Source: the human T2T-CHM13v2.0 reference genome, Homo sapiens
NCBI RefSeq assembly: GCF_009914755.1
Contig: NC_060939.1
DNA: 64,000 bases
Direction: 5' to 3' (one strand)
The notes below the pieces were generated by a model. It searched no databases. It saw nothing but the letters and a program-made list of their open reading frames with translations, and was not told where the DNA came from. Positions 28,641 to 53,600 of this stretch are shown one piece after another (positions within the stretch are counted from its first letter, which is position 1; each line of letters starts with the position of its first letter). Position numbers and translations under genes: made by a program.

Positions 28641-28998
<358 letters not shown>

Positions 28999-30202
28999 AT
29001 TAATATAAAATGTGGAACTTTTCGCTAGTGGAGATGAATGAATATACTGTGCAGATTTATGGAAGTATGACATCTAAAAAGACCAGAATAGTTCCTAAGT
29101 GAAAAGCGGAAGGATATGCCCTAGAAGAGGGCATAACTGAATGTGTGGGGAAGGTTTTCAAACTTTACTCCTTCTAATGCAAACCTCTGTGACCCCTTAC
29201 AACCCCTTCCTCTGGATGGGTATCATTCCATATCATTACAGGCAGTACTGAGAGGGAGATTACAAATTGTAAACATTTTCAGAGGTGGGGGGAGAAAAGA
29301 TGGAAACCATAAAGACACAGCTATATAAAAGGTTAATTGCATATATATTTGGTTATGGTAATTTCTGTATATATGCTTCATATCTTTTACAGTCAGTGTG
29401 TTAGTGGCAAATAAATACGTAGAACTTACTTCAAAATATTTTGTTGTTTCTTAAAGTGCCTAATTGTACCATAGTCCAACACGAAGCCCTTTTATAAGAG
29501 AGATGGAAGAGCATGCAGAATCTAATCATTAGATTCAATAAGTAAATATGTATTGAGTACTGATGAAGTACCAACTAAACATTATGATTCATTTTGATAA
29601 AACAAGCCAGTCACATTAGTAAGAAACAGCTCACTCTGGCTGGAGAACTTGTTCCCTACTTTCACAAGGTTGACTTCTTAATCCGATCAAATGAAAATGT
29701 CATGTTCACCAGAAAGGCCATTTCTGATCATCTAATTTATAGACTGAACACCCCTCACCCTGTCATTCTACTTTACAGCACCTTGTTCTGTTCACAATTT
29801 ATAATTGTATTATCACTTGTTTACTTGATTAATGTCTGTCTCACTCATAGATCGTGAACTCCATGAAAGCAAGAATCAAATCTGTTTTGAAGCACTCCCA
29901 GCATTGAGGGAAATACCTGAAGTAGAAGGCATTCAGTAAATACTTGTGGAGTGAATGTATATATTCTTGCTCTATATGTGAAAACACCATTTATTCATAC
30001 AGTTAAACTATGATGTCACTATTATGTCAGATTATTATAATGTCATATTCATTAACAACGAGACCCATAGTAAAAACAAAAATGTATTTGACAAACTGTT
30101 CATTAGTAGGAAATTGAGTTTAGTATAGATGAAATTTTCAGGTAAGATATTCTTATCTTTTTGAAGATATGACAGCATATTTAAGCTTTGGGCAAGGCAG
30201 AC

Positions 30203-30497
30203 TTTTTTTTTTTTTTTGAGACAGATTTTCACTCGTTGCCCAGGCTGGAGGGCAACGGTACGATCTCGGCTTTCCGCAACCTCCGCCTCCCGGGATCAAG
30301 CAATTCTTCTGACTCAGCCTCCCGAGTAGCTGGGATTACAGGCATGCGGCACCACGCCCGGCTAATTTTGTATTTTTAGTAGAGATGGGGTTTCTCCATG
30401 TTGGTCAGGCTGGTCTCAGACTCCCAATCTCAGGTGATCTGCCCGCCTTGGACTTCCAAAGTACTGGGATGACAGGCGTGAGCCACTGCGCCCGGCC
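30203..30497 (-). mobile_element. AluS
   Basis: antisense dimer. Confidence 0.9.
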
Positions 30498-31910
30498 TGG
30501 GCTATTTTTGTTTCCCACAGATGTTTACACCAGAATGGCTGTTGCCCGGTTTGATTGCGCCAGTGTCTGACAGCTGTGTGGTGCCTGTATCATAACAGTT
30601 GTTAAATAATTTGAATATATAATGTTTAAATATGTAGCTTGTCTTTGATCTTTTGACAACAGAGATAGCTTCATTTACCTAAAGGGGTACTGATTTTAAA
30701 AATTAATTCATTTGAATTTAAACACAGCATATGCTAGACAAAACTCTTAGGGAAAGAATATGTATATACGTGCATGTAAACCACACAGACTGAAAGAGAA
30801 GCATTCAGTACATAAATTATTAGGCTCAAGTAGGAGGTTACTATAGAGTTAGCTGCTACTTATTTTCAGAATTTGATTTTATATTTTGAATTGGAAGAAT
30901 GCCGATCTGGGAGTCAAAAACTCTTAATTTTGAGCCATGGATGCATAACCTTGGGTATTTTAATATTGGGCTTAGTTTACTGGTTTGCAAAAGAGATGAG
31001 TGGACAAGATATCTTTAAAGTCTATTCTAGGCATGAATTTTCATGATTCTGCAGTATATGTTCCTTTTAAGAAGTGAGACATTACCAGGATAAATATAGG
31101 AAAAACTAGTAGTATCCCCTTACCCCCTCACCCTCCTGAGTAACCAATTTAATATGCACAGAACATCCTTCTATCATCCTTTTTGGTACACACAAACATA
31201 TATAAACAAAAATAAATGTATGTAAGCTTTCTTGCCTGAAAAAAGTAAAATAAAATATACATTATTCAGATGTGTTTCCCTGCTAATAGACATCTGAATG
31301 TCTTCAGTTTTTATTTTTGTCACTATAAATAATATTTCAGTAAACACCATTGTAGAAGTATCACTATATGCTGATGCTTTTGTTTTTTTTCTGTCAGATA
31401 CATTTTTGAAAATAGGATTTTTGGGTCAAAGGTATATGCAGTTTTCATTTTAATAGATAATTGCTAATTTATTTCTAAAATATTTGTGGTGATTTAGAAT
31501 GGTAACAGTGCCAATTGCCAGCACTGAGTTAATATTTTGTTTTCTATTGCTGCTCACCTGAAGGCTAAAAATGATGCCATTTTAGTTTAATTTGAATTAT
31601 CTAGATTTTGTTGGAACAAGAAAAAAGAATTCTACTTGCATCTCTTCAAATGATGGGTCTGCATACCGTCTACTATGAATTGGCAATTCGTAGCCTTTGC
31701 ATATGTCCATTTTAATATGATCAACTTTTAGATATTATATATACTGTAAATATTTTTTCCAGTCTTTAGTTTGTCTTTCTGCTATGGTTTACATAGCGAG
31801 ATATACTTGTTTTTTATAAAATAGGTGGTTTGTTTTCTGTCGTTCTTAAGTGAGAAGATCTTCACCAAGGGCTTCCTTCTGGAATTTTTATAGGTTTATT
31901 TAAAAATATT

Positions 31911-32232
<322 letters not shown>

Positions 32233-32412
32233 TTAAAAAATATATAAATAGTCTAAATTTGTATTTTTACATGGGGTTTTTAATGGAGATGTACTGAATT
32301 AAAAGCTCATTTTGTCATATATAAGGCTCTTATGTGTACTTGGATGTAATTCTAGATTCCATGCTCTATTCTCTAGATTTGCTTATTCATGTGCCAGTGC
32401 TATACTATTCTA

Positions 32413-35400
32413 TTTTTTTTAAAGGTTTAAAACATTTATCACTAAAGATACTAGAATGTTCTTTGAAAACCTATTAAGACATTTAACTATTCTTTTATGC
32501 TATTCTGATCAAAAGAAAGAATAAAAGTTTAGGAAAGGGAAAAATGCACATTTCTTAAAAAAGTTTATTTCTAGCCCTGAAAGAACAAAATTATTGAACA
32601 AAGTCATAAAATACAGCAGTTAATGTCAATGTATAACAATTAAATAATTGAATGGGATTAAATTAAAAATAAAAGACATTATAAAATTTGAAGACAACAG
32701 AAAAGACAAACTATAATTTTACTTAATTCCATTTCTATCACAACAAGAAAAAAAAGCCAATGCGTTCCAACCAAAGATGCTGAATTCCAAACATAATTGT
32801 TTCTCTTAATAAAGAATAGAAGTGTGCTTGACAGAATTATCATCCATTTCTTTCTGCCTCTGTCTTGGCAGCATTCTAGAGAAGTGAATGGGAAAGACTT
32901 CCATTCTTTCAAGGCCAGGCCAGTGTTTGCTTCTTCTTTCTAACTCCAACCTCGTCTACCACAGCATCTTTGCCAGAGTGTTCAATCAGTGTGTTGACTG
33001 AGAAAAAAGAATGTGTGTATATATTTTTTCTTATATACACACACTATCAAAAAACTGATTTCACCAGTTTCAATACCTACTGTGGGAGCAGCAGAGACAG
33101 GAAGACAATCTGCTTCTTGTATTACTATGAAGTTCCACTATAAAAAACCCCAAATGAGTATTAATCTGGATTTTAGCTATAATCTATAATATTTTGACAC
33201 TGACATTTCACTAGATGTGGATCTCAGTATATTTAAAAAGATTTAGACTCAAAAATGGATGCAAATTCTTTAAGCATCTATTTTGTTTTTTTCTAATTTT
33301 AGCTACTACCTGATCAGATCTAAAATTATTCTGGCTAGAATACAGTATATACAAACGTATTTAAGTGAGTCCTATAAAGAAATACTCATAGGTAGTTTAA
33401 AATTTCTTGTTAAAGGCACAGGCTCATTTACAGTTGGTGGTTACTAGACTCTAAGCAGCTTAACATTTATATGTTAAAGGGAAGAGAATTAGTACTATGT
33501 GCCAGGCACTCGACACATGAAGACAGAGTTGTATTAGCCTCGGTGTCTTACGCTTCACAATTACTCATTTACTATTCTAGGTAGGATAAAATGTTCCATG
33601 TTTCATAGTTTCCCAGTTTTAACTGTCCCTAAAAGCAGCAGAAGAAAAAAGAAAAAGTCTAAAATATAATAAATAAGTACTATAGTAACACTGTCCTAAT
33701 AACACAAGAGGACTATTAAAGTAACTTTTAGATTTAAATGGGAATTTTCATTCTAAAGTGATGACAAAAAGGGTAAATATAAAAGGCAATTATTTAAAAA
33801 ACATGAGGCCAGGTGTAGTGGCTCGTGCCTGTAATTGTAGCACTTTGGGAGGCCAAGGTGGGCAGATTGCCTGAGCTCAGGAGTTGGAGACAAGCCTGGG
33901 CAACATGGTGAGACTCTGTCTCTACTAAAAATACAAAAAATTAGCTGGGTGTGGTGGCACGCACCTGTGGTCTCAGCTACTCAGGAGGCTGAGGCATGAG
34001 AATTGCTTGAACCCAGGAAGCGGAGGTTGCAGTGAGCTGAGATCATGCCACTGTGCTCCAGCCTAAGTGACAGAGTGAGACTCTGTATCAAAAAAAAAAA
34101 AAAATAAAAATAAAAAATAAAAAACATGAATCTTGATTCAGATATAATTTTTCTTTCAACAAGTTCTCAATGTTTTAATTTAAAATTAATAAATCACAAT
34201 TCTGTATTGCTTTTAAGATTTTGTTTAAAAATGACACATCTCAAAATTAACCAAACTATATTTCTGCTAGAGGTTAGTTTATCCATGTAACTTAAGAATA
34301 AACCACAGTGTAGCTCCCTTAACCAAAGAGCCAGGTTTTAATGACTGAAGTCAGCTGCCAGCAATGGACATGCAGGTAACTATCGAAGAAGTTGTAGCTA
34401 CAAATCCCAAACTGCTTCTATCAATGGAAAAGCCCTTTGTTGAGTCACAAGCCTGAAGTGAGGCCTTGGCACATAGTCAGTGAGAATGGTCTTTGACTTA
34501 GAAGGGAAGTGCCTCTGAGTGCATGAGGATCACAGTCTTCTCATCTCGTTGGTTTTCTATTTCATTGGTAGCATCTTCTTTATCATAATCCATCCGTTTA
34601 CAAAGAATGTTAAAATTTGGAACTCAGGTGGCACTGCAGCTTTCTGACAGAAATAAACCAGTTTCTGTAATTCAGTAATAGCTGTAGAAGGCCAATATAT
34701 TCCAGAGAAAAATGAAATCAAGAATTATATTGAAAACAGAGACCATTAAGTGCTCTAAATATGTTTCATTAATTATTTTACTCATTTTTCTGAAAATCTT
34801 GCCTTATCAATAAAAAACAGTCACTTCTCTCCTTATAATTGTATCTTATCATAGATATAGTGGGAATAAAATAATGGAAATAAAACCCTGCTAGTTTCCC
34901 CAATGTATACTACAACAGCAAAATTATTTTTTTATTCATGATTTATACTACTGCAGGATGGCAAGCAGGGGGGAAGTTAATGGGGGAAGGGGATGGTGGG
35001 AACAAAATGCCAGAACCAAACCAAATACTTGAACAACCTATTCCAAAGCAAAACAATGAATAAAGGAGAAGGAGAGGAGATGAAAGAAGAGAAGAGAAAG
35101 GGAGGGGAGGGGAGAAGGGAGGGCACTCAAATAATTAATGCTACAGGTCTCAGATCTTTCAGAATCTTTAAAAGAAACAAATTATTGCTCTCAACACGCA
35201 CATTTCATTTTCCTTTCTTGTTTTTTTACATTAATAGTCTCTACCTATTTGAAAACAAAACAAAAGTAACTCAACATCTCAAATGATCTATAAATTCATC
35301 AAGAAATACTCTGTCACTCAAGTTCTCATAGATAATACCACACTGATGATGACCTGGAGCAATGCCGCCGCCTCCAAGTCTCTACAGTTGATTTCCTATC

Positions 35401-38252
35401 GGCTGCTTCTCTGTAACACTAACATTCTCTTTCATGAGTATAATCTCTTCTCACTATATCAGAGATCACCAAGGTTCACGTCTCTCACTCTGCGCCTGCT
35501 AGTCCCAAATATTGTTCTCCTTTAAGTGGAAAAAAGCTAATTTTAAATTCCCGAAAATTCACTGGTTATTATATTATTTGCCATGGGAGGGGGGTATCTG
35601 TGAGGTGAGAGAGGATTAATGAAAAACAAAAAGAACAAAAATAAACCTAAAATTGCAACATATACAGAAATTTATTTCCAAATTGAAGGGGGAAAGGAGG
35701 GAAGAAGGTAGTGGCACTAACCAAAGTCACAAAGCCCAGGTTGGAATAAGAACAAATCACTTTGGTTCCTAGAGCCAAGCCTGAAGGGGAAACAGGCAGA
35801 AGGGAAGACGAAATGGGAAGAAATACACGGTCAATGGGAATCTTTTTCTATCTCAATGATTTAGTTATAAATAGAGATTATTAGTCTTCTCTCTATACAT
35901 GTAACAAATGCCAAACTTACTACCACAAAATTTCTAAAACTGACTTTTTCACATTTGTTAAAAAAGGTAAAAATCAAATACTTTTCTTCCCTTCCTTCAG
36001 GTCAAGTTCTGAACTAAAATATTACATGTAACAACAGCTGGTCCTAACTTTTATAAAAAGTGAAACTATATAGAGCTCCTTTGCCAACATAAGGAGCTAC
36101 ATAATTTCTATTACACTTACCTAGGCATGAGAAACTCAAAAGCAACTCAAAAGGAGCAAGTCCAGGAAAAGGAAAGCTATGAAGGAGAGAAAGACTAGCA
36201 GATGAAACAAATACTCTGAAAAACTCCAATCTGCCATTCAAGTATTGGAAATACCCCAAAGGGGACAATGAATGGGATCTATTACAACAAAGTCAGCAAA
36301 GTAAAATGCAAATCTCACATATGATAAATGGCCCTGATAGGCGGTTTGCTGAAAGACCTAAGGCTAGTGATTCAGTCCACAATTCCTTTTGGACCCTAAA
36401 GAAGGGGTTCATATAAAAGTCATACTTTTCTTTTTGCAATTTTCTCTTGGTTGTCTTCAGAGAATAGTCATTTGCTTCTTTCATTCAGGTTATGCAGACC
36501 ATTTCTTTAAACCCCCAAAAGAGTAATAATTTTCATATACTAAAAGGCTTCTTGTAGAAAATGGAAAAAAGAATATGAGGCCACAGCAGTGATGTTAACG
36601 GTTACTCTTCATTGCTTCTTTAGCTGCCATGATCAGTGGTGTCAAGCTAGATAACAGTTTGGCTAGTTTCAGGAAAAGATGCTGTAATAATTCTTTGGCT
36701 GAACCCCTTTTTTCCACATCTGTTTCCAAACATCGATTTAAGAAATCCCGAAATATTGGGGAAAGTGTCTCTGGATTCTGAAGTTCTGGGATTCCATTAG
36801 TTGCTATTAGGCACAAGGCCCTCAAGGGATTTTCACTGAGGTATGGAGGCTCTCCTTCTACCATCTCAGTAGCCATGATACCCAGAGACCATACATTGAC
36901 TTTAGGGCCATAAGCCTTCCGTGTAACCACTTCTGGTGCCATCCAGTATGGCGTTCTGACCACGGTACTGCGTTTGCTCTGCTCAGGGGTGATCTGGGCA
37001 CAGAAACCAAAGTCAGTGAGCTTAACCGATCCTTCCATTCCCAAAAGTACACTGTCACTTTTGATGTCTCTGTGGATCACTTGATTAGCATGTAAAAACT
37101 CCAATGCCTGTAAACTCTCTCTGCATACAGCGGCAATCTGTGCTTCATCCATGCAGGTTTCTGTTACCACATCAGTGAGTGACCCCCTAGCAAGGTATTC
37201 CACGACCACAAACAATTCATCTCCTACCAGGTAACTGTCCAAGAAGTTAACTATGTTGGGATTTTTTAATTCTTTCATTACCAGAATCTCATTAATGATC
37301 AATTCCTTCTTTGGCTGTTTCTGTAAATTAATTTGTTTGATAGCAACCTTCTGTCCCAGTGCAACGTCAGTAGCAGTGAAAACTGTACCAGAAGCCCCTT
37401 GTCCAATTTTTTCATATCTTGTATATTTTTTTCTTAGGGTCACCTATGCTCACAATAGTTCTTAGTTTCTCCATAATCTCTTCATCTGTCATCTTAGTCT
37501 TCTTTTTCTGTTTGTCTAAAGACTTGGCACCACCATCAACATTTGAATCACCAACTGGTGCAGGAACAGGGTCAATTACAGACCGTGTGTAAATTGATTT
37601 CATATGATCCGGTGGTGGGGCAATAACGGGAGGGGCAGTCTCTTCATCATCGTCCTCCTCCTCTGTCACTACTGCAGGTGCTTCTGTTCCCTCGGCATTC
37701 AGTGCTGGTGTTCCAGAAGGGAAGCCATCTTTCTCAGGAGGAGTAAAACTCAGATACTTCTGCTTCACTGTGTTGGAGTCGTAGACATCCAGCACAGCCT
37801 GAGGATTCTTCTTTTGCTCTAGTTTGGTGATATTTGAGGTCTGTAGTAATCGAGCCCAGTGTTCTGGCATGCCAGTGAATTCTCCAGTAACAGCATCAAA
37901 GCCAACATGGATGGTGTGTTCAAAATCAGATGGAGGAGAAATTTCTGGCCGTTCCTTTTCTTTCTTTTTACTTCCTTTCTCTGTGCCTGAGAATATGGAG
38001 ATGATTTTATGCCTGGGCTTTTTCTCCTCTGGAACAGAAGGCAAAGGTTTCAAACTGTGATTGGCTGACAAAGGGTCTTTGCCTCCAGTGCTAAAGATGG
38101 TCCTGCTCATTCGCACGGGAGGTGCTGGAGGCTTGTCTTCCAGTTCTCCATTATCACACATGATTCAGAATTATGAAATGGCCCCAGGTGAGGCAAGTTC
38201 CCCACCCCAGTGAGGCGCCTTGGTCAGAGCTCCTGGGAGGTTGCGGAGGCGC
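32413..38252 (-). pseudogene. Processed PAK2 pseudogene (partial 5'UTR, intronless CDS 38161-36595, long 3'UTR, short poly-A)
   Basis: ORFs 37412-38161 ([10 protein letters not shown]..., CRIB) and 36595-37443 (STE20 kinase to ...AMKSNR) match PAK2 with no introns. One extra A in the A-run at 37426-37432. T8 at 32413-32420 with GATAAA 15 nt upstream is the inferred 3' end (less certain). Confidence 0.95.
33807..34122 (+). mobile_element. AluS within the PAK2-derived 3'UTR
   Basis: full dimer; TSD taaaaaacatga. Confidence 0.92.
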
Positions 38253-39648
<1,396 letters not shown>

Positions 39649-40083
39649 GAATGCTGGAAAAGCACAAATGTAACGTTTTATGTGGTGGGACAGCCCTTTC
39701 AAAAGTGTTTTCCACTGCTTATACTGATGAAGGTAGAAAAAAATTTCACTTATTTTAACTCTTCCTTTAAAAACTTCTTTTTGGTGGCTCATGTCATGCA
39801 TACTCCACAAGTCCTGGAAGTTAAATGCTCTTAAATATTTGATGGTCTGGTCTTAGCAAAACGGCAGGTTTTTACTTTTACATTTTTAGCTATGTTTTAA
39901 ATTATTTGTAATCCAGACACTGAAGTTTTATTTTGTTGTGAATTGAATCTGGGCAGAGTGTACAAGGGATCTCTCTGTATTATTTTTACAACTACATGTG
40001 AATCTATAATTATCTCATCAAAAATTCACTGAAAAAGGTATCACGGAGCCCATGTTTGCTGTTACCGTCTTTGCTCCTCCCAG

Positions 40084-40181
40084 GTTACAATGCCCCGTGC
40101 CTCTCAGTGCACAGTGAAAATGCAGCAGACGTTTTTGATGTGAGCTCCACGGAATGGATCCAGACTGTCCCCTTCAACAAG
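40084..40181 (+). pseudogene. Isolated exon homologous to the MRCK/CDC42BPA CNH domain
   Basis: Acceptor gtctttgctcctcccag|G, donor AAG|GTAATT. The 98 nt read (x)YNAPCLSVHSENAADVFDVSSTEWIQTVPFNK, versus recalled CDC42BPA CYNAPYLSVYSENAVDIFDVNSMEWIQTLPLKK. Confidence 0.85.
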
Positions 40182-42796
40182 GTAATTTGACCTTAAGATT
40201 ATGCAACTAATGAGTTAATGACTGAAACGCGGAAACAGAAATAATCCATTGTACATTTACTGTAATGGGTACTTGCTAGTTTGGAGGCTTAACAAAGAGT
40301 ATAAAAAACAAAACCCTACAAAACATTATATTGATTAATTGCATTACTAGTACTAGAGCCATTTGTGACATCTAGTTCCATTATATAAAGTAGTATTGTT
40401 ATAGATAAATATATTATTTATTTATACCATACAGCACAGCAGTTATTTCCCATATTCAGTTTAAAGTTACTTTATCAGTAATTTTTACTTACCAGTATAA
40501 TTTGTTCCTTTTATACTTACCAGTATAAAAAGGAACACTTTACAGGGTAAAAGGAACATTTTTACAGGGTAAAAAAAGAAAAAAGCATATAACCAAGGCT
40601 GTGTTTCAGATTCTCAATAGGATTTCACAATGGTGATGTTTTGCAAAACAAGGACATTGACAGTAACTCCATCTACTTACCTTAGGCAGATTTTCCTAGT
40701 TTTACTTTCACTGTGTGTGTATTAATGTCTGTATAATTCTACCACCTGCGTGAGTTCATGTATCCACCACTAGTCAATATACTGAATGGCTCCAGCACCA
40801 CAGTGGGTCCCTCAAGAGCCCTTTTATAATCACTCCCCCTCCCTCCCACCTCCTTCCGCTTTCCTAACCCCTGGCAATCAGTAACCTCCATTTCTAAAAT
40901 TTTATCATTTCAAAACTGTCTAACAAATGGCGTTATATAGTATTCATGATTTTTATCTGCTAAGTCCAAATTTATTTTTCTAAAAAAACCAAACTTTGGA
41001 TTAGAAACCCAGGAGAATCCCATTGCAATATTCTTATCATATAGCAGCTACATCAAAAAATTTTTGGAATATATACAGTTCAAATAAATAGACAAAAACA
41101 AGTGATGCCCATCAGTCAGATGATAGAGTAACTTCAATTCATATGGTCCAAGTCTGACAAAAATGCATTCTAACACCTGCATCTAACACCAGCTTTATTG
41201 AATAATTTCATCACGTTTCAAAATCTGTGTCTCCTAGACCAGTTGAGCTCACAACAAAAAGCAATTGTAGAGAGTTAGAAAAATATATGAAATTAGTGAA
41301 CAAAACAGTGAAACCTTCCAACCAGGAATGTTTTTGGAACTTTCTTTGTTAGTAATAGTTCCTTATGGTTCCTAAATATTCAACCTCCCAGCATGAATGT
41401 GTCTCCCATCAAAAGAGCCACAGAATAAACACAACCTCTTTTTTCAACATCCCTCTTCCTATGCTCACGTCTCCCATCTTTTTCCCTTGTCTTACAGCCA
41501 AATTCCTGAAAATGTTATTGATATTCCTTGCCCTCCACTTCCCACCCCTATTCACACCTCCATCCAGGGCAATCTGACTTACACCTTAATCACTCCATTA
41601 AAGCTGCTCTCATACAAGTTATCAGCCATCAGTTGTGAAAACCATCTGACCTGTTTGTCTCTTCTTGGCTGCCCAGCGACACCTGACCCTTCTTTCTTCA
41701 GCCCCCACGCTGCTGCTCCCTCGATTTTCCCCACTTCCCTGAATTCTCCTTCCCTGTTTTCTCTGCTCCTCTTCCTCTGGTCGAAGCCCTCTTCCTTTCT
41801 CGCTCTGCTTACTCAGCATGTCCAAAGAGTCAGGCTGACACTACCAGAAGCGAGTCATCGATTTTAGCGTGACAAGTGGGATGGCTAGAGATTGTGTGCC
41901 ATGCACAGTACTGTTCATGAAGTCTTCCTACAACCAGGCTTCAGAGCTCCTTCCCCATTATAGGAAATTCAGGGCATAGAAGTGAAGCAGTATCATGAGG
42001 GAGAACAAAGACAGGTGCAGATTGTGGGACATTATGAAGGACAACAAATCAGTGGCAGGGAGGACTGCTCAGGATGAGAGGACCTTTGTGAGAAAGTGGT
42101 GTGCAGGGTGGACCTTGTCAGGATTCTGATTCCAATAGACAGACTGCAAAAAGAGAAATACTTGTGATAATCAAGTATGTATGACTGTGGACTATGTATG
42201 GGATGATAATCAGAATCATTGAGTACATCTTCAGGAGCGATCACAGCAATGTGATTATGGGAGAAAGTGTCCCTACTTTTAGTGATACATGTTCAAATGT
42301 GTAGAGATGGAACAACATGATGTCAGGGATTTGACTTGAAATATTCCAACAACACAACAACAAAGAAAATACTTCAATGGTCACATCTCTTCCTCCATAC
42401 CCGCCTAGATCTGCTCCACCTTGTGTTTTATGACCTCAGAGTCTATCAGTGGCCTCCGCCCCTTTGCTCAAGTTGGAAACCTGAGAATCATTGCTGATTC
42501 TCTTACATGTCAGCTTCCACTTCCAACCAAGTGTGAAGCTTTTGCAATTTTATCTCCTCAATATTCCTCATATCCTCTCCTCTCCATCCCCACCGCTACT
42601 ATCATACATAATTTTAATTCACAATTTCTCCCGTAACCCCCTAACTGGTCTCTTAGCCTCCAGTAAGTAGTAATTGAATTCCCTTAATTACTAGTGGTGT
42701 GGAGCATTCATTTGTGCGCTTATTTGCCACATGTATCTTCTTTGTTGAGGAACCTGTTCAAATACTCCGCCCATTTTAAAAATTTGGGTTGAGTTG

Positions 42797-43100
42797 GGGA
42801 GCGGTGGCTCACACCTGTTATTTCACCACTTGGGAGGCCAAGGTGGGTGGATCACCTGAGGTCAGTTCAAGACCAGCCTGGCCAACATGGTGAAACCTCG
42901 TCTCTACAAAAATACAAAAATTAGCCAGGCATGATGGCGGGTGCCTGTAATCCCAGCTACTCGCAGGGGTGGGGGTGGGGGATTGGGAGGCTGAGCGGGG
43001 AGAATCGCTTGAATCTGGGAAGCTGAGGTCACAGTGAGCCGAGATTGTGCCATTCCACACCAGCCTAGGCAGCAGAGCAAGACTCCATCTGAAAAAAATA
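42797..43100 (+). mobile_element. AluS with internal G-rich insertion
   Basis: dimer; extra gcaggggtgggggtgggggatt at about 42963-42984. Confidence 0.88.
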
Positions 43101-43184
43101 AAATTTGGGTTATTTATTTTCTTATTATTGAGTTTTTAAAATTCTTCATACATTCTGGATACAAGGTTTTTTTGTCATATCTGA

Positions 43185-43580
<396 letters not shown>

Positions 43581-46500
43581 CCAAACTTTTATCACATTTT
43601 TAAAAGTTTTATACATTGTGCTTTGATGTTGTATCAAAGAATTGTTTGCCTTATCCAAAATCAGAAAGATTTTCTTCATTGTTTACTTTTAGGCACTTCC
43701 TAGTTTTAGGTTTACATTTAGTTACATGACCTATTTTGAATTAACTCTCATATATGCTAAGAAATATAGATAAAAGTTGATTTTTTTGCATATGGTTATC
43801 TGAGGTTCTAGCACAATTTGTTGACAGCTTTTGCAGCTTGTTGGAAATACTGTATATATTAAAGCAACAGAATAGAGGATCCTGCAATATATATCAGCAA
43901 ATGTATAAACAGACACATAGATATAGAGATGGATATACACAAAATATTTTTGTATCTGTATATACAGTTCTGAATTTCATATCATATATATTATAGTTTT
44001 ATTGTTGAAATCAGGTAAAGTTAATTTATCAAATTTGTTCTTTTTTCAGTTATTTTGGCTCTTCTAGATCGTTTGCATTTTCTTATGAATTTCAGAATCA
44101 GCTTGTCAATATCTACCAAAAAATATTAAAATCCTGCTAGAATTTTGACTAGGATTGTGTTGAAACTATCTATCAATTTGGGGAACATTTATGTTCTAAA
44201 TATTGGTTTCCAGGGCATGAAGACAGTGTATCTCTCCATGTATTTGGGTTATCTTTAATGTTTCTCAGTATTCCACAGTTTTCAGTGTACAGGTCATGCA
44301 CATCTTTTGTCAGATTTATTCCTAAGAGTTTAATATATTTTGATGCTACTTTAAATGGCATTGCTTTTAAAATTCCAATTTCTGGTTATTTGTTGCTAGT
44401 ATAAAATGCAATTGGTTTTTGTATATTGTTCATGTATCCTGCAACCTTGCTAAACGCATTTATTAGTTCTAATAGCTTTTTTTGTATTTTATATTGAATT
44501 TTCTACATAGATGTTCATTTTGTCTGTGTGCAGTTTTGCTTCTTTCTTTCTATCCTGGACGTATTCTATCTCAGCTTCTTGTCTGGCTAGGATTTCCACA
44601 ACAATGTTAAATGTAAGCGTGGTGAGAGCAAACATCCCATCTTGTTCCTGATAAGACAAACAAGAAAGCATTGAGTGTTTCGTTACTAACAATGATGTTA
44701 GCTGTAGGATTTTTCACAGATGCCTTTTATCAGGATGAGGAAGCTCCCTTCTAAATGTTCCAAATGTAAATATATGACTTCATCAAATGTATTTACTGCA
44801 TCTATTGACATGATCATTTATTAATATGGTGCAATACATTGATTGATTTGAGGATGTTCAACCAACCAACCTTTCTGAGATACATTATATTTGTCCACGG
44901 TACAATATAATTTTTATGTATTGTTGGAACTGATTTGCTAACATTTTGTAAAGAACTTTTATATCTAAATTCAAAAAGAATATTTGTTTATAGTTTTTTT
45001 GTAATATCTTAGTCTAGCTTTGGTATCAAGGTGATACTAGCCTTATAAAATAAGTTGGTAACTAGTTCCTACTCTTCAATTTTCTGAAAGAGTTTAAGTA
45101 TAATTGGTAATATTTCTTCCTTAGAGGTTTGAACAAAAAACTTCAGAGAAGCAATCTGGGGTTAGAGTTTCCTTTGTAGGATGAGCATTTAATTAAAATT
45201 CAATTACTTCAATAAATATAGAGTTATTCAATTATCTGATTCTTCTTGAGTGAGCTATAGCAATTTGTATCTTTCAAAAAAATTCTCATTTCATCTCAGT
45301 TACAAAATTTATTAGGTAATGCTGTACACAGTATTCCCTTACTCCATTTTTAATTTTTACAAAATCTGTGCTGATATAGTTTCTTTCATACCTGATATTA
45401 GGAATTTGTCTCTTTTTTGTTTTGATGATCAGCCTGCTAGAAGTTTATAAATATTTGGTTTCATAGATTTTTCTCTACTTTTTTTTGGTTTATTGATGTT
45501 CACTCTGATCTCTAGTATTTCCAAAATTGTTTTTTGTGTTTAATTTGCTCTTGTTTTTCCAATTATTAAGGCAGAAGCTGGGGTAGTTAATTAATCTAAA
45601 ATCTATTCTCTTTTCTACTATAGTGTTTAATCCCATAATTTTACACACAAATATTGCCTTATCAGCATTCCACACATTTTGAAATATTGTTTTCACTCTC
45701 ACTTAGCTGAAAATGCATTGGTTTCTCTTTTGAAATCTTCTTTAGCCCTTGCAATATGTAGACATGTGTAATTCATCATCCTAATACTTGACGTTTTTCC
45801 AGAAAAGTTATTATTATTAACTTCTAATTTATTTCCAATGTGGTCCAAGAACATACTTCATATGACTTAAATCACTCCAAATATTCTGATACTTGCTTTC
45901 TGGCACAGAATGTATTCTATCTTGATAAATATTCTGTGTTTGCTTGAGAAGAGTTTATATTATGTGACTGTCAGGTGGACTGATTTATAAATATCAATAA
46001 AATCAAGTTATTTGATAGTTTTATTTTTTTAAGTCTGCTGTATCTTCACTGATTTTTTTGCTACTTGTTCTACTAATTATTGATAGTGAGTAATGTAATC
46101 CCCAACTATAATTGTGGAATTGTCTATTTCTCTTTTGAGTTCTATTGGTGTTTGTTTCATTTGTGTTGAAGCTCTGTGATGACATACGTAGTGCTTGTTA
46201 TTCTTAGAATTATCACGTCCTCCTGAGAAGCGGACCCTGTTCTCCTTATAAAACGACATTCTTCATCCCTGATAATATTCTCTTATCTGATGTCTACTTT
46301 ATCTGATATGAATATAGCCACTCCAGCTTTCATTTGATTCATGGTAACTCTTTTTCAATCTTTTACTTTTAATATGTTTGTATCTTTACATTTAAAATGT
46401 CTTTCTTACAGGCAGCATGTACTTGGGTCTTCATTCTTTTCATCAAAGCTGACAACCTCTACCTTTTAATTGGGATGCTTAGAACATTTAACAAGATTTT

Positions 46501-47619
46501 TGAAATGGTTATGTTACACCTGTGATCTTGTTATTCATCTTTTACTCAATCCATCTGTTCTTTGCTCCCCTTTCCTGTTTAGTGCCCTGTTTTGGATTTT
46601 GTTGTTGTTGTTGTTATTCCATCTCATCTTCTTTGTTGGCTTATATGATAACAAAACTTTTTGTTTTGTTATTTCAGTGGTTGCTTTACAACTCTAAGTT
46701 ACTGCAGCCTACTTTCACATGTTATCTTACTTCATGTGTGGTGTAAGAACCTTCCAGTAACATGCTTTCATTTTTCCTTTCCTGGCCTTTCGCTATTGTT
46801 GTCCTGCATTTCACTTACACATAAATTACAAACTACACAAAACACTGTTGTTATTTCCGTATAAAATTCAATTATTATTTCAAGATTTTTTAATGGAGGG
46901 GTCTTATACATCTTCCTACACAGTTACTTTCCAGAGCTCTTCATCCTTTATTACAGATCAATATTTCCATCTGATATCATCTTTCTTCTGCCTGAGGAGT
47001 TCCTATTTTATTTCCTGTGCAGCAGGTCTGCTGGTGATACATTCTTACAGTTTTTTTCTGCCTGGATATATCTTTATTTCCCCTTCATTTTGGAAAGTTA
47101 TTTACACTGGTTACAGAATTCAGAGTTAACAGTATGTCCTCTTTTAGAATTTAAAATATTTTTTCTATATCCTCCCAGATTCTGGTATCTGTGATGAGAA
47201 CTCTGGCAGCATCCTTTGTTAATCTTTATGTATGGTGTGTCCCATCCCTCTATGTCTGTATCACTAGGGTTCAATACTTTGATTACTATGAACCTTTGTG
47301 GAGTTCTTCATATTTCTTATAGGTGGGCTTTACTGAGTTTCTTGGATAAGAGATTTATAGTTTATATCAAATTTGAAAACATTTTGGCCATTTTTTTGTA
47401 TTATTTTTTCTGTCCCTCCTCTTTTCAGTCCTTCTAGGACTCAAATTACATGTATTATTGGCTGCTTGAAGGTGTTCCACAGTTTAGTTTCTTAAAATCC
47501 TTTTACTCTATTTCCTTTTGGATAGTTTTTATTGCTATGTCTTGTATTTGGCAATGTTTAATCTGCTATTAATCATGTTCTGTGTATTTTTCATCTCAAA
47601 TTTATAAGTAAGAGTTTTT

Positions 47620-47907
47620 GGGTGGGCATGGTGGCTCACACCTGTAATCCCAGCCTTTTGGGAGACTGAAGTGGGCTGATCATTTGAGCTCAGGAGTTTG
47701 AGACCAGCCTGGGCAACAAGACAAAACCCCATGTTTACAAAAATTAGCCAGGTGTGGTGGCACATGCCTGTAGTCCCACCTACTCAGGAGGCTGAAGTTG
47801 AGGATAGCTTAAGCCCAGAAGGCAGAGGTTACAGTGAGCCGAGATCACGCCACTGCACTCCAGCCTGGATGACATAGCCAGACCCTGTCAAAAAAAAAAA
47901 ACAAAAA
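47620..47907 (+). mobile_element. AluJ
   Basis: Alu dimer. Confidence 0.85.
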
Positions 47908-49351
47908 CTTTCATAACCAACTATATAACCATTCTACTACTTAGAGGAACAAAAAAGTCAATAATTCACGATTTAAAAGCTACTAAAAACATAAAATATA
48001 AAACTATGCACTAAGGAGTTTTATATATAAATTTACCCATTAAATAAATATGTGTATGTACTTCTTTAATTTAAAAAATTCTAATGACTTACAGTTTATA
48101 CCACAAGATTATTTATACAAACAGATTATTCTCATTCCAGAGTGGGCTTTTTGGGGGATGAAGTTTACTAAGCAATTTACAATGTTCTGTGAAAATCATC
48201 AGCTTTTTCAGGTTCTGTAGTAAAGTTATAAAAGTTCTAGGCACCATATCTTTTTAAACCATAAGAAAATACGAGGGCACATGTGTGTATGTATGTATGC
48301 ATGAATGCTTTTATGGCAGTTTTATTCGTAATTACCAAAAACTGGAAACAACCCAAATGAACTGGGGAATGAATACAGAACCTGTTGTACATCCATACAA
48401 CGCAATGCTACTAAGCAACAGAAAGTAATTACTGATACATAAAAACATGGATGAATCTCAAAATACATTAGGTTAAATAAAAGACGTCCGTCTCAAGAAG
48501 CCACATACTGAGTCAAGCAGGGGGATCCCTTGAGACCAGGAGCTTGAGGCCAGCATAGGCAATATAACAAGGCCTCCCATTTCTATTAAACAAACAAAAA
48601 TTAAAACAAAAAGGCTAAATACTGCGTGATTTTGTTTACACGGAATTCTGAAAAGAAAAAAAAAAAAAGACAAGACAGAGAAAAAAACAGATCAGTGGTG
48701 GCCAGAGACTAGAGGTAAGGAAATGGGCTGACTATGGAAAGGGTCATGAGGAAATTTTTTGAGAAACTAACTCTATATCTTGATCATCATGGTGGTTGCA
48801 CAACTAGATGTGTTTCCCAGTCTTACAGAACCATATTCAAATACACCTTAATAAAGATAATTTTCAACCATACATATGATAGAATCATAATTATTACTCT
48901 TATACTAAGACCAAATAGATGCTGCTTAAACCACTGAGGCAAGAACACTAAACCTTGGTCTGATCTGCCTCCAAGTTTGAAAACTCCCTTCCATTAACAT
49001 TTTGCCTAAAAATTAAACAATATTTGTAAATTAGTCACAAAATCCTTTAAGATTAAAATATACATATATTCTTAAAGAAAACTACCTAGTGCTTGCAACC
49101 AAGTCATTTTAGGAGAAAATTAGCTTTGTTAAGAAGGGAATAAAGCCCAAGTAATAAATATTAACATCCATCTTTTCCAGAATCATGATGGTCAAAACAA
49201 TGAGACTCTTCTCCTAATTTTGGTTCAAAATACCAAAATTTTTACTTCAAAAACTCTCTAACAGATTATTATAAAATCTTAACATTTGCCTAAAAGTCTT
49301 TAAGTATTTTCACATAACTAGGCAGTATAACAAAAAAAGAGCACAGGCTTA

Positions 49352-49624
49352 GGCTGGATGCAGTGGCTCACACCTGTAATCCTAGCATTTTGGGAGGCCA
49401 AGGCAGATCGCTTGAGTCCAGCAGTTTGAGACCAGTCTGGGAAATGTGGCAAAACCCCGTCTCTATAAAATACATTAAAACGTGGCCCATACCTGTAGTC
49501 CCAGCTACTTCAGGGGATGAGGCAGGAGGATGGCTTGAGCCTTAGAGACAGAGGCTGCAGTGAGCCAAGATCACGCCACTCACTCCACTCTGGGTGATAG
49601 AGTGGGACCCTTTCTCAAAAAAAA
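49352..49624 (+). mobile_element. AluJ (internally deleted)
   Basis: Alu motifs with short gaps. Confidence 0.82.
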
Positions 49625-50697
49625 ATTTTTTTTTAAAGCACAGGCTCAAGAACTCAACCCACCTAGGCAAGTTATTTAACCTAATTTTCCATCGATTGTA
49701 TCATCAGTAAAATTGGGATAATTTTACCTACCTCTAGGAATAATCCTAGACTATTACATGAGTTAATACATGTATTATAATAAATCACAGGGTAATGCCT
49801 GGCATAGTTAACTAAGTCTCAATACCAACCTAACATAAATGAATGACACCAATAATCACCAGCTGTGTAGTCTTTGCATACCACAATTCTGCCCTGTAAG
49901 GTAAGTGGCCTAAATTCAATGGCCTAAATAAAGACCTATCTAGTAATACTACTCTATATTCCTATTATTTTACCTGAATTGCACCTACCTAATTCAGTTT
50001 GCAAAAGAAAGGTTAAGTATTATACCTCTTATATATAAAAAAGTGAACTATAAATAAGTTAAATGACTTACCCAAAGAAACAGTAACTTGAAGGCAGAGC
50101 CAAGATGAGGATTTGGTATTGAGACTCCTTAAAACTTTGTCCTCTCCAAAATTTTTAGCCCTCCATGAATTCCTTCCCTCCTAAACAAAGATACGGGTAT
50201 AATGCACCCCCAAAAACCTCCAATTTAATAATTTAAAAATTTCATTAAGCTATACATTTGATTTGTGCACTCTTCTGTATGTTTTATATCATAATAGAAA
50301 GGTTAAGTGGCTTATTACCTAATACACTAGTATTCACTTGTATTCACATATGAATACATACACTTGTATTCACATATGAAGAGAAGTAGTGGAAAAGTTA
50401 CATTAAAAGCTAAAAGGTGACAAACTAAGCAGATTATGTTCTTTAAAATTTTGTGAGAGGCAAAAGTTTTTAACTGAGGTATATAATACATGTACAAAGA
50501 AGTGCACACTTCCTAAGTCTACTATTCAATGATTCTCATAAACTGAACACAACCATGAAATCATGACCCAGATCAAGACAGAGAACATTACCAGCACACC
50601 TACAATCTCCCTTGTCCTCATCACCAAAGATAACCATTATTCTGATTCCATTCCCATCTGTTAGTTTTGTCTGTTTTTTAAGCTTTACAGAAATGGA

Positions 50698-50804
50698 GTG
50701 CTCGCTTCGGCAGCAAATATACTAAAATTGGAACAATACAGAGAACATTAGCGTGGTCCCTGCACAAGGATGACATGCAAATTGGTGAGGCTTTCCATCT
50801 TTTT
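50698..50804 (+). pseudogene. U6 snRNA retrocopy (RNU6 pseudogene)
   Basis: gtgctcgcttcggcagca...acagaga...gatgacatgcaaatt...ttccatcttttt, full length with several substitutions; sits in L1 sequence with no evident PSE/TATA upstream. Confidence 0.95.
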
Positions 50805-51027
50805 ATTATTACAGTAGTCTGTATTATTTCATATCCAAAAAAATGATCAATATGAAGAATGGGATGAACTAATTAATACTGTGATTGAAGACAATAGCAT
50901 TATTTGCCTGGGAAACTAAAGACAAAACAACTGGAAAACTACTAAAACTGTTAAAGGAGTCAATTTGCTACTTATGGAATAAACATATACTGTATTCACA
51001 GTAACATATATTATGGAATTAAAATCA

Positions 51028-51207
<180 letters not shown>

Positions 51208-51529
51208 TTAAATAACCTAAGTGTCATCTCCATGAATGCATGTATACAACTTTGTTGGATTGAAGGCTCCTCATCTCAACCCCACTGGAGGTAAATGCTA
51301 TAAAAGTAAGTAATTCAAGAAAGTTTCATCCAAATTAACTCATGTAAAACAAAAACAAAACAAGAAAAATTTGCCACATCAAGGTAATGTTATAAAATGT
51401 GTAATGTAACTACTGTCTTTATTTGTGTCTCACTTACAAAGTAGATCTGAACTATGGATTACTACTACTTACTTTGATTAAAAAAACACTGATGTGAGAT
51501 ATTTTTGTAAATTTTCTTTACCCAAAGGT

Positions 51530-52100
51530 TCACTGCAGCCATAAAAAAGAACAAAATCATATCCTTTGCAGCAACATGATGCAGCTGGAGATCATCATCC
51601 TAAGCTAAACATTGGGTAAACATGGACATAAACATGGGAACAATAGATACAGGGAACTAACAGAGAGGAGAGGATGGGAAGGGGCGAAAGCTCAAAACTG
51701 CCTACTGGCGGCTGGGTACAGTAGCTCACGCCTATAATCCCAGCACTTTGGGAGGCCAAGGTGGGTGGATTGCTTGAGTCCAGGAGTTCGAGACCAGCCT
51801 GGGTAACAGGGCGAAACCCAGTCTCTACAAAAAAATACAAAAAATAGCAGGGTATGGTGGCCCACCACTGTAGTCCCAGCTACCCCGGAGGCTGAGCTGG
51901 GAGGATCGGCTGAGCCCAAGAGGTCAAAACTGCAGTGACCAGTGATTGCAATATTGCAATCCAGCCTGGGGGACAGAGACCTACCTTGTCTCAAAAAACT
52001 TAAACAAAACTACGTGCTGGGTGCTATGCTTACTACCTGGGTGATGGGATCAATTGTACCCCAAACCTCATGCAATATACCCATGTAACAAACCTGCACA
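51530..52100 (+). mobile_element. L1P 3' UTR fragment with nested AluJ (about 51709-51998)
   Basis: gcagccataaaaaagaac...catgtaacaaacctgcaca interrupted by an Alu. Confidence 0.82.
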
Positions 52101-52691
52101 CTATTATTATTGCGAGAAACAGAGCTAATTTAGAACAATATATATAGCTTGACCCAATTTGAGGAAAAATTTTACATTTGTATATTTGTTGAAAACAACT
52201 ATCAATAAAGAACTAAAATTGCATACTATTCATTCATATGACTGAATACTACACAGCTATTAAAATTAATGAAGTAAGGCAGGTGCAGTGGCTCACACTT
52301 GTAATCCCAGCTACTCGGGAGGCTGAGGCTCGAGAATCACTTGAAACTGGGAGATGGAGGTTGCCGTGAGCCAAGATTGTGCCACTGCTCTACAACCTGG
52401 GTGACAGAGTAGGACTCTGTTTCAAAATAATCATAATAATAATACTACTAATAATACACATATATCAGCATAAATAAATGTAACTTTCCAATTACAGAAT
52501 GTATGTACCAAAATATCACATAAATTTGAAACACAATAGTACTACATGTTAAATATATGTAGATATTTGTAGGAAGAATATAAGTGCATGAGCTAAAAAG
52601 ATAAATAACTTCTGCATAAGAAAATAGGATCTAAGAGGATGACAAAAGGGACTCCAACCGTATGCATATTTTATTTTTAAAAACAAATTTA

Positions 52692-52988
52692 GGCCAGGCA
52701 CAGTGGCTCACCCCTGTAATCCCAGTATTTTAGGGGGCCAAGACGGGCAGATCACTTGAGGTCGGTTGGAGACCAGCCTGGACAACATAGTGAAACCCCG
52801 TCTCTACTAAAAATACAAAAATTAGCCGGGAGTAGTGACAAGCTCCTATAATCCCAGCTACTCAAAAGGCCAAGGCACGAGAATTGCTTGAACTTGGGAG
52901 GTGGCGGTTGCAGTGAGCAGGGATTTTACCACTATACACCAGGCTGGGCAACAGAGTGAGACCCCATCTCAAAAATAATAAATAAAAA
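52692..52988 (+). mobile_element. AluS
   Basis: full dimer. Confidence 0.88.
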
Positions 52989-53053
52989 CATATATAAATA
53001 CACTTTTGAAGCAAATCTGATAAGATGTCAGCATCTATGAAATCTACTGAATG

Positions 53054-53405
<352 letters not shown>

Positions 53406-53511
53406 TTAAATTATTCTCCATATTTTTCTAAATTTTTGAAATATTTAAACTTTGCTCTAAAAAAGTCGAGATTTTGGAATTCAGAGACAGGCTTTGTAGA
53501 TTCAGTACAGG

Positions 53512-53512
<1 letters not shown>

Positions 53513-53548
<36 letters not shown>
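53513..53548. repeat. (TG)n microsatellite
   Basis: seen directly. Confidence 0.95.
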
Positions 53549-53550
<2 letters not shown>

Positions 53551-53600
53551 ATAAGCCTGTTATTCTGTACTATAAAATTTCTAACTAAAAAAAAATTATA

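What the first reader, a model, noticed from the sequence alone, without database searches (positions are those of the whole stretch)
40060..40190. Orphan, frame- and splice-intact exon of an MRCK (CDC42BPA)-like gene
Seen: a 98-nt exon with a strong acceptor and donor and an open frame, too short for the ORF track, encoding YNAPCLSVHSENAADVFDVSSTEWIQTVPFNK. Recalled: the CDC42BPA CNH domain has YNAPYLSVYSENAVDIFDVNSMEWIQTLPLKK, about 9 differences in 32 residues, far more than the NBEA exons show. Retained splice sites indicate a genomic rather than processed origin. I could not find neighbouring MRCK exons. Inference: remnant of an ancient duplicate, possibly a lost MRCK paralogue, carried into this duplicon and perhaps unannotated.
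Basis: partly seen in the sequence, partly recalled or inferred. Interest (0 to 1): 0.75.

Follow-up and report, generated by a model that had tools for sequence, protein, structure and literature searches.

The report
Lone fossil exon of MRCK-alpha duplicate
A single dead exon copied long ago from the kinase gene CDC42BPA survives on human chromosome 15, probably the last trace of a kinase-less sister gene that horses, dogs, cattle, squirrels and tarsiers still carry.

Summary
Window 40084-40181 (+) is a 98-nt open segment with AG/GT borders. It matches one CNH-domain exon of CDC42BPA (chr1:226214413-226214511) with identical borders, length and phase; 79 of 98 nt and 23 of 32 residues are the same.

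About 220 nt of the downstream intron still aligns to the CDC42BPA intron at 73%, so the copy is genomic rather than processed, and old rather than a recent segmental duplication.

No other MRCK exon lies within 184 kb, by tblastn, blastn or a profile HMM. The human genome holds the piece twice, both times in 15q11 (18.64 and 19.94 Mb).

Protein searches found a concrete candidate parent. It is a kinase-less "MRCK alpha-like" paralogue (C1, PH_MRCK and CNH domains) predicted in many Laurasiatheria, a ground squirrel and a tarsier. It forms a well-supported clade beside placental CDC42BPA, and no human protein or gene for it turned up.

The exon fits that family in one residue (Val where 43 of 43 placental CDC42BPA rows have Leu) and in its apparent age. 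However, 32 residues cannot place it (AU p 0.38-0.56 for all placements), and synteny could not be tested.

Six residues are unique to it, which fits neutral decay. Verdict: a real but non-functional relic of moderate interest. The lost-paralogue idea is plausible but unproven.

The parts
40084..40181 (+). Relic exon, 98 nt, phase 1 to 0, encoding 32 residues of the last CNH blade of an MRCK-alpha-type protein
   Evidence: Borders, length and phase are identical to the CDC42BPA exon chr1:226214413-226214511. 19 of 98 nt differ: 9 nonsynonymous and 10 synonymous, at codon positions 4/4/11.
40062..40083 (+). Inherited 3' splice site: polypyrimidine tract plus AG
   Evidence: The last 14 nt or so are alignable to the CDC42BPA acceptor. 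Homology further upstream is cut off by a repeat ending near 40037.
40182..40402 (+). Inherited 5' splice site (gtaattt) and about 220 nt of residual intron homology to the CDC42BPA intron
   Evidence: 151 of 208 aligned columns identical (72.6%), z=14.9, 0 of 200 shuffles reach the score. The next 380 nt show nothing (z=0.4). One search gives one colinear HSP, window 40069-40402.
39945..40037 (.). Interspersed repeat copy 47 nt upstream of the acceptor, which bounds the homology
   Evidence: 37 of the 40 scored matches hit only query 46-145, at 78-93% identity, on many chromosomes.
39660..47625 (.). 'Orphan' block that hosts the exon; no counterpart outside 15q11 was found
   Evidence: window 39660-42790 matches full-length only chr15:18.64 Mb (itself) and chr15:19941614-19944742 (-, 99%); for 40200-47625 only dispersed repeats scored elsewhere; a chr22-derived segment starts at 47625. 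The second chr15 copy was not listed, so two-copy status is shown only up to 42790.
38251..39659 (.). L1 3' end inserted between the PAK2 retrocopy and the relic
   Evidence: window 38253-39627 matches dozens of loci at 91-95%. Masked in the hub's table.
32418..38250 (-). PAK2 processed retrocopy (the body of LOC646214), unrelated to the MRCK exon
   Evidence: window 32418-36684 matches chr3:199554003-199558334 at 93%; an intronless kinase domain at 36829-37407 (-), Pkinase E=1.2e-57. The upper end of the retrocopy is approximate.
32546..40775 (-). Annotated transcript LOC646214 (NR_027053.2), which reads the relic exon antisense
   Evidence: Hub annotation. The 39660-40775 part has no chr3 (PAK2) match.

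Best explanation
The segment is a non-functional fossil: one exon plus about 220 nt of its downstream intron, from an old unprocessed (genomic) duplicate of the 3' half of CDC42BPA (MRCK alpha).

The most likely parent is the placental 'MRCK alpha-like' paralogue. This is a kinase-less C1/PH_MRCK/CNH protein still predicted intact in many Laurasiatheria, a ground squirrel and a tarsier, and missing from the human gene set.

On this reading the gene died in the lineage to anthropoids. All its other exons were deleted or overwritten. Retrocopies of PAK2 and of a chr2 sequence, an L1 and Alus now fill the neighbourhood. The surviving piece sits in an 8-kb block of 15q11 that was later duplicated once, in inverted orientation, within the pericentromere.

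It does nothing today. It is read only antisense, by the LOC646214 transcript.

Shown: homology, borders, age class, orphan status, copy number, and the existence and phylogeny of the paralogue family. Inferred: that this exon belongs to that family, and when and how the rest was lost.
For: - Exon borders, length and phase are identical to the CDC42BPA exon.
- Intron homology of 72.6% over 208 columns, z=14.9, against 80.6% in the exon. This is too diverged for a primate segmental duplication. By my recalled neutral branch lengths it is about what two copies would accumulate on the human lineage since roughly the boreoeutherian ancestor.
- The paralogue family is real and old. Its 15 rows form a clade with SH-aLRT 100, sister to placental CDC42BPA (82), inside a mammal clade (99). 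Its inner topology follows the species tree: squirrel with tarsier 99, carnivores 100, cetartiodactyls 96. Its domains are C1, PH_MRCK and CNH, with no kinase.
- No human member appears in two protein searches. Two genome searches find only CDC42BPA, CDC42BPB and CDC42BPG, two decayed retrocopies and this exon.
- At site 28 the window has Val. 43 of 43 placental CDC42BPA rows have Leu, while the 32 paralogue rows have Val (16) or Ile (16) and never Leu. Thr22 occurs in 7 of 32 paralogue rows and 0 of 43 CDC42BPA rows.
- Six residues (C5, H9, A14, S20, F30, N31) occur in 0 of 171 MRCK rows, as expected after loss of constraint.
- No other MRCK exon in 184 kb: 13 protein queries, 11 CDC42BPA exons by blastn and a profile HMM over 9793 ORFs, where the next best hit has E=2.6.
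Against: - Placing the 32 residues on the family tree is unresolved. Log-likelihoods differ by at most 3 units, and the AU p-values are 0.51 (with the paralogue), 0.56 (with placental CDC42BPA), 0.38 (outside both) and 0.46 (free). These used fast searches and only 2000 resamplings.
- Identity to the window is 20-25 of 32 for paralogue rows and 22-24 of 32 for CDC42BPA rows, so neither is preferred.
- Val28 is probably the ancestral state (non-mammal rows have I, V or M), so it excludes descent from crown placental CDC42BPA but does not define the paralogue. Thr22 is scattered within the family, so it is homoplastic.
- The substitution pattern does not require a functional past. With the intron distance as the neutral yardstick, an exon that was neutral ever since the duplication predicts about 11 nonsynonymous and 6 synonymous changes. 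Observed are 9 and 10, which is not significantly different (my arithmetic).
- From contig lengths and my memory of chromosome sizes, the cattle and dog genes seem to lie on BTA8 and CFA1, regions syntenic with human chromosome 9 rather than 15. Yet no copy exists on human chromosome 9.
- No nucleotide sequence of the paralogue was available.
Confidence: 0.6

Rival explanations
1. An independent, dead-on-arrival fragment. A small genomic piece of CDC42BPA (or of its mammalian ancestor) was copied once, long ago, was never part of a working gene, and has drifted neutrally ever since. It has nothing to do with the MRCK alpha-like family.
For: Exon and intron divergence fit neutrality since the duplication (see the Against line above). 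Only about 335 nt of homology exists and no second exon lies within 184 kb. Placement on the tree is unresolved. The apparent chromosome-9 synteny of the family in cattle and dog (recalled) does not match 15q11.
Against: It needs a second duplication of the same part of the same gene at about the same time as the one that made the paralogue. It also needs the complete disappearance of the paralogue that the human lineage must have inherited, given that tarsier and squirrel group inside the family. Val28, Thr22 and Val16 are all states seen in the family.
Confidence: 0.3
2. A live, unannotated coding or regulatory exon that is still spliced into some plus-strand transcript. Its open frame and splice sites would be maintained by selection.
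For: Open frame, a 17 of 20 pyrimidine tract, AG and a GTAAT donor. The two chr15 copies are identical over 501 nt.
Against: Six residues occur in 0 of 171 MRCK rows, including two Tyr positions that are aromatic in 170 of 171 (site 9) and 167 of 171 (site 5) rows. No partner exon lies within 184 kb. No protein of 75-2000 aa shares three 5-residue words with it. The hub table lists only an antisense transcript here. An open 32-codon frame is expected by chance about one time in five. The identity of the two copies reflects a recent duplication (99% over 3.1 kb).
Confidence: 0.03
3. An ordinary recent segmental duplication of CDC42BPA into the 15q11 pericentromere that diverged unusually fast.
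For: The window is a mosaic of duplicons from chr2, chr3, chr13 and chr22 at 87-93% identity.
Against: The exon is 80.6% identical and the intron 72.6%. Homology ends after about 220 nt, whereas the neighbouring duplicons are 87-93% identical over 3-6 kb. Val28 would need a reversal from the Leu fixed in 43 of 43 placental CDC42BPA rows.
Confidence: 0.02

Closest known systems
CDC42BPA (MRCK alpha), exon encoding residues about 1416-1447 of the CNH domain, chr1:226214413-226214511 in T2T-CHM13
   Same: Same exon borders, 98-nt length and phase. 79 of 98 nt and 23 of 32 residues are identical, and about 220 nt of downstream intron are still alignable.
   Different: The relic has none of the other exons. 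It carries six residues seen in no MRCK protein examined, has Val where all 43 placental CDC42BPA rows have Leu, and has no plus-strand transcript in the hub's annotation.
Predicted 'serine/threonine-protein kinase MRCK alpha-like' proteins (e.g. horse P0014, tarsier P0070, ground squirrel P0065, zebu P0056): kinase-less C1/PH_MRCK/CNH paralogues
   Same: Derived from the same part of CDC42BPA. Val or Ile at site 28, Thr22 and Val16 all occur in the family. The apparent age of the relic matches the family's origin on the placental stem.
   Different: Those are full open reading frames of 580-790 aa, whereas this is one exon. Membership is not resolved by phylogeny, and neither synteny nor nucleotide sequences were available.
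Unitary and unprocessed pseudogene fragments in primate pericentromeric duplicon mosaics (e.g. the NBEA, NF1 and IGHV fragments of 15q11; named from the hub table and my recall)
   Same: A gene fragment with its intron-exon structure retained, embedded in a mosaic of retrocopies and duplicons, and present in more than one 15q11 copy.
   Different: Typical 15q11 duplicons are 87-99% identical to a surviving ancestral locus. This piece has no ancestral locus left in the genome, and its nearest relative is only 73-81% identical.

Membership tests
CNH domain (Pfam PF00780) | Match to the profile above the gathering score | tested here: inconclusive
   17.2 bits against a cut-off of 26, E=0.005, covering profile positions 217-246 of 255. 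One exon cannot reach the cut-off. The homology itself is secured.
MRCK (CDC42BP) gene | Kinase domain, coiled coil, C1, PH, full CNH and CRIB encoded at one locus | tested here: not met
   Only 32 residues of CNH are present in 184 kb. The only kinase domain nearby belongs to the PAK2 retrocopy on the other strand.
Unprocessed (genomic) pseudogene fragment of CDC42BPA type | Exon borders coincide with those of the parent, and flanking intron homology is present | tested here: met
   (borders, 98 nt in both). (intron: 151 of 208 identical, z=14.9, 0 of 200 shuffles).
Recent segmental duplication of CDC42BPA | At least about 90% identity, colinear over kilobases including introns | tested here: not met
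   only window 40069-40402 aligns. Exon 80.6%, intron 72.6%.
MRCK alpha-like kinase-less paralogue (orthologue or relic of it) | Groups with the family in a tree | tested here: inconclusive
   AU p 0.38-0.56 for all four placements. The free fast tree put it next to the tarsier row, the best likelihood put it next to human CDC42BPA, and the differences are at most 3 lnL units.
MRCK alpha-like kinase-less paralogue (orthologue or relic of it) | Family-typical residues (not Leu at site 28) | tested here: met
   window has Val; paralogue rows V 16, I 16, L 0 of 32; placental CDC42BPA L 43 of 43. Val or Ile is probably ancestral, so this is permissive rather than diagnostic.
MRCK alpha-like kinase-less paralogue (orthologue or relic of it) | Conserved synteny, or intron homology with the gene in other mammals | not testable with these tools
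   No non-human eukaryote genome can be read here.
Processed pseudogene (retrocopy) | Exon-exon junctions without introns | tested here: not met
   Intron sequence and both splice sites flank the exon. Compare the chr11 and chrX copies, which are intronless.

The most novel reading that the evidence does not exclude
The exon is the only surviving human trace of a placental gene family that nobody has studied. This is a kinase-less MRCK-alpha paralogue (C1/PH/CNH) that arose on the placental stem, evolves 5-10 times faster than CDC42BPA, is kept as an open frame in Laurasiatheria, a squirrel and a tarsier, and was lost on the way to anthropoids. The decayed retrocopy on chr11p15 shares Cys5, His9, Val28 and Phe30 with the exon. 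It may have been made from that gene's spliced mRNA, which would show that the human-lineage copy was once expressed in the germ line.
Probability: 0.5. Interest if true: 0.45.

Novelty: new member of a known kind. Interest (0 to 1): 0.3.

Why it matters
On its own, the piece is one more pseudogene fragment in a pericentromeric mosaic and has no expected function.

Its value is as a pointer. It led to a widely conserved, kinase-less MRCK-alpha paralogue that exists only as automatic gene predictions. My six literature searches found no paper about it. The exon also suggests that humans, and probably all anthropoids, lost that gene.

A dominant-negative-like C1/PH/CNH protein could modulate MRCK/Cdc42 signalling in the species that keep it. 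Its loss would add to the list of lineage-specific gene losses in primates.

For annotation: the 5' 1.1 kb of the 'PAK2 pseudogene' transcript LOC646214 is not PAK2-derived and runs antisense through this relic.

Tried and rejected
- **PDB search**. The top hit, designer Kelch proteins, is a sum of six sub-threshold repeats (0 stretches pass) and was set aside. Only mrck-1 is meaningful.
- **Protein placement by ML.** A full search timed out. Fast-search trees with an AU test of 2000 resamplings are uninformative.
- **dN/dS reasoning.** I first read the excess of third-position changes (4/4/11) as proof of a functional past. Once the intron distance was available, the pattern proved compatible with neutrality throughout, so I dropped that argument.
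- **Word-index search with the exon.** A 42-aa window reference then found no candidate sharing three 5-residue words. This is weak evidence, because the horse protein should share some words.
- **Weak chr4:9933265-9933444 hit** (E=0.045). Local tblastn gave only E of about 0.2-0.45, with no colinear neighbours, so I treat it as noise.
- **chr11 retrocopy as proof that the exon's gene was transcribed.** The six shared states reach only P=0.03-0.16 under simple neutral simulations, so it remains a lead, not evidence.
- **Search for further homology** between window 24000-50700 and 13 kb of CDC42BPA gave only Alu-Alu matches apart from the exon HSP.
- **Literature.** LOC646214 appears only in CNV and expression lists (22 papers, 15 listed, listing only). 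The Makoff and Flomen 15q11 map (PMC2394762) was searched for six terms, with 0 occurrences of PAK2, CDC42, MRCK, NBEA and LOC646214 and one unrelated mention of BCL8.
Full report
**What is there**

Reading the window shows, on the plus strand:
- a pyrimidine-rich tract (17 of the 20 bases before the AG, my count);
- an AG at 40082-40083;
- 98 bases (40084-40181) that are open in the frame of ORF 40002..40190;
- a donor, AAG|gtaattt.

**Is it more than chance?**

- Pfam matches the peptide to the end of the CNH domain, profile positions 217-246 of 255, E=0.005. The score is 17.2 bits, under the 26-bit cut-off, as a 32-residue piece must be.
- Among solved structures, the only meaningful hit is C. 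elegans mrck-1 (7z6e_A, residues 485-513, E=0.001). The nominally better designer-Kelch hits are sums of sub-threshold repeats.
- A filter-free phmmer run over 1.84 billion proteins found 51 hits at E<=1e-3. Nearly all carry the same MRCK motif, and the best reaches 5.6e-8.
- In the T2T genome, a 501-nt query around the exon found two identical chr15 copies (18,639,900-18,640,400 plus strand; 19,944,002-19,944,502 minus strand) and one further homologue, chr1:226214398-226214523, at 82% over 126 nt (E=7e-26). The other 37 of the 40 scored matches belong to a short dispersed repeat at window 39945-40037.

**Relation to CDC42BPA**

The chr1 match is the CDC42BPA exon for residues about 1416-1447. 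Aligned base by base, the two exons:
- start after the same CAG and end before the same GTAATTT;
- are both 98 nt long and share the same phase.

They differ at 19 of 98 bases, at codon positions 4/4/11: 9 nonsynonymous and 10 synonymous changes, of which 15 are transitions.

Downstream of the donor, the next 220 nt still align to the CDC42BPA intron. 151 of 208 columns are identical (72.6%), z=14.9, and 0 of 200 shuffles reach the score. The following 380 nt do not align (z=0.4). Upstream, the alignment is cut off by the repeat (also the single colinear HSP 40069-40402).

The piece is therefore a genomic, intron-bearing copy, and it is far more diverged than the duplicons around it:
- PAK2 retrocopy, 93% to chr3;
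- chr2-derived piece, 93%;
- chr13-shared piece, 89%;
- chr22-derived piece, 87%.

**Orphan status**

No second MRCK exon was found in chr15:18,540,001-18,724,000:
- tblastn with CDC42BPA and 12 paralogue proteins gave only this exon at E<0.07;
- blastn with 11 CDC42BPA exons gave this exon at E=1e-30 and only non-colinear noise otherwise, best E=0.004;
- a profile HMM of the family against 9793 six-frame ORFs gave E=2.1e-14 for this ORF, with the next best at E=2.6.

Genome-wide searches with the horse and tarsier paralogue proteins found only CDC42BPA, CDC42BPB, CDC42BPG, decayed intronless copies on chrX and chr11, and this exon twice. Both searches ran in a stricter mode that can miss matches under about 60 bits.

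The 3.1 kb around the exon exist only at the two chr15 sites, at 99% identity to each other. From 40200 to 47625, nothing but dispersed repeats scored elsewhere.

**A candidate parent**

The best long hit, P0014, is a 730-aa horse protein named 'MRCK alpha' or 'alpha-like' by NCBI.

Searching with it, and with its tarsier relative, listed the same kind of protein from horses, cattle, deer, pig, camelids, whales, dog, fox, hyena, meerkat, stoat, sea lion, hedgehog, a fruit bat, a ground squirrel and the tarsier Carlito syrichta. No human, ape, monkey, mouse or rat entry appeared among the 120 rows shown of 190 and of 174.

These proteins have C1, PH_MRCK and CNH domains, and no kinase or CRIB domain.

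In a tree of 36 rows (quick IQ-TREE, SH-aLRT only):
- the 15 paralogue rows form one clade (100);
- that clade is sister to the 10 placental CDC42BPA rows (82);
- both sit inside a mammal clade (99) that excludes sauropsid, coelacanth and fish CDC42BPA;
- inside the paralogue clade the species tree is recovered, and branches are several times longer than in CDC42BPA.

The human lineage must therefore have inherited this gene and lost it.

**Does the exon belong to it?**

For:
- At site 28 the window has Val. All 43 placental CDC42BPA rows have Leu, and the 32 paralogue rows have Val or Ile (16 each).
- Thr22 is seen in 7 of 32 paralogue rows and 0 of 43 CDC42BPA rows.
- The intron distance (JC about 0.34) is roughly twice the human-lineage neutral branch since the boreoeutherian ancestor. 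That figure is my recollection, not a tool result. It would match an origin on the placental stem.

Against:
- Val or Ile is probably the ancestral state, so site 28 only excludes a copy made from crown placental CDC42BPA.
- Thr22 is scattered within the family.
- Overall identity is 20-25 of 32 to paralogue rows and 22-24 of 32 to CDC42BPA rows.
- Constrained ML trees differ by at most 3 log-likelihood units, with AU p of 0.38-0.56 for every placement (fast searches, 2000 resamplings; a full search timed out).
- The substitution counts fit an exon that was neutral from the start about as well as one that was functional until roughly the tarsier split.
Those regions are syntenic with human chromosome 9, where no copy exists.

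I therefore hold the paralogue-relic reading at about 0.6 and an independent dead fragment at about 0.3.

**State of the exon**

Six residues (C5, H9, A14, S20, F30, N31) occur in none of 171 aligned MRCK rows. They include two tyrosines that are almost invariantly aromatic.

Together with the absence of partner exons and of any annotated plus-strand transcript (hub table), this marks a dead sequence. The intact frame and splice sites are inherited and easily kept by chance over 98 nt.

**Context**

The relic lies inside the single annotated exon of LOC646214, but antisense to it.

The body of that transcript is a PAK2 retrocopy. Its kinase domain is intronless at 36829-37407 on the minus strand (Pkinase E=1.2e-57), and its 3' part is 93% identical to chr3:199554003-199558334. 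An L1 3' end (38253-39627) separates the retrocopy from the relic.

**A lead not settled**

chr11:15364652-15365068 holds a heavily decayed, intronless copy of this exon joined directly to the next two exons.

Over 86 comparable bases it agrees with the chr15 exon against CDC42BPA at 6 sites, including those giving Cys5, His9, Val28 and Phe30. It agrees with CDC42BPA against chr15 at 8 sites, and it is alone at 21.

Simple neutral simulations give P=0.03-0.16 for six or more coincidences. A shared origin is possible but not shown.

**Literature**

No paper in the searchable library links CDC42BPA to a 15q11 pseudogene or describes the kinase-less paralogue. LOC646214 appears only in lists (listing only). 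The 15q11 map paper PMC2394762 does not mention PAK2, CDC42 or MRCK (term search only). Subscription journals and GENCODE pseudogene tables were not visible to me.

**Verdict**

The feature is a real, very old, unprocessed one-exon relic with no sign of present function. It is a new member of a known kind, of modest interest, mainly for the unstudied gene family it points to.

Noticed in passing
L030 / G000 chr11:15364652-15365068 (+): A decayed intronless (processed) copy of an MRCK-alpha-type mRNA. It covers this same exon joined directly to the next two exons. It shares Cys5, His9, Val28 and Phe30 with the chr15 exon, but the sharing is not significant (P=0.03-0.16).
   Followed up: partly
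L027 / G000 chrX:35337194-35340077 (+): An old intronless MRCK pseudogene, colinear with CDC42BPA residues about 370-1541 within 2.9 kb and full of stops. Its CNH end resembles MRCK beta (…SEYG…VEWVQT…).
   Followed up: partly
window 28427-32411: A segment 93-95% identical to chr2:165452649-165456373. It ends 7 bases before the 3' end of the PAK2 retrocopy (32418). These may be two adjacent retrocopies or a chimeric insertion. The parent gene was not identified.
   Followed up: no
window 47625-57120: Two further duplicon pieces: 47625-50700 is 87% identical to chr22:30363082-30366052, and 50679-57120 is 89% identical to chr13:18074756-18081206 (pericentromeric).
   Followed up: no
window 39660-40775 (-): The 5' 1.1 kb of the annotated 'PAK2 pseudogene' transcript LOC646214 has no PAK2 (chr3) match. 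The transcript starts in orphan sequence, runs antisense through the MRCK relic and an L1 3' end, and only then enters the retrocopy.
   Followed up: partly
proteins P0014, P0053-P0075, P0136, P0141-P0149, P0154, P0156: The kinase-less MRCK alpha-like family (C1, PH_MRCK, CNH) is conserved as open frames across Laurasiatheria, a squirrel and a tarsier. Its branches are several times longer than those of CDC42BPA. I found no paper on it.
   Followed up: partly
G000 chr15:19941614-19944742 (-): A second, inverted copy of the exon and its 3.1-kb surroundings, 1.3 Mb away at 99% identity (100% over the central 501 nt). The extent of this intrachromosomal duplication was not mapped.
   Followed up: no
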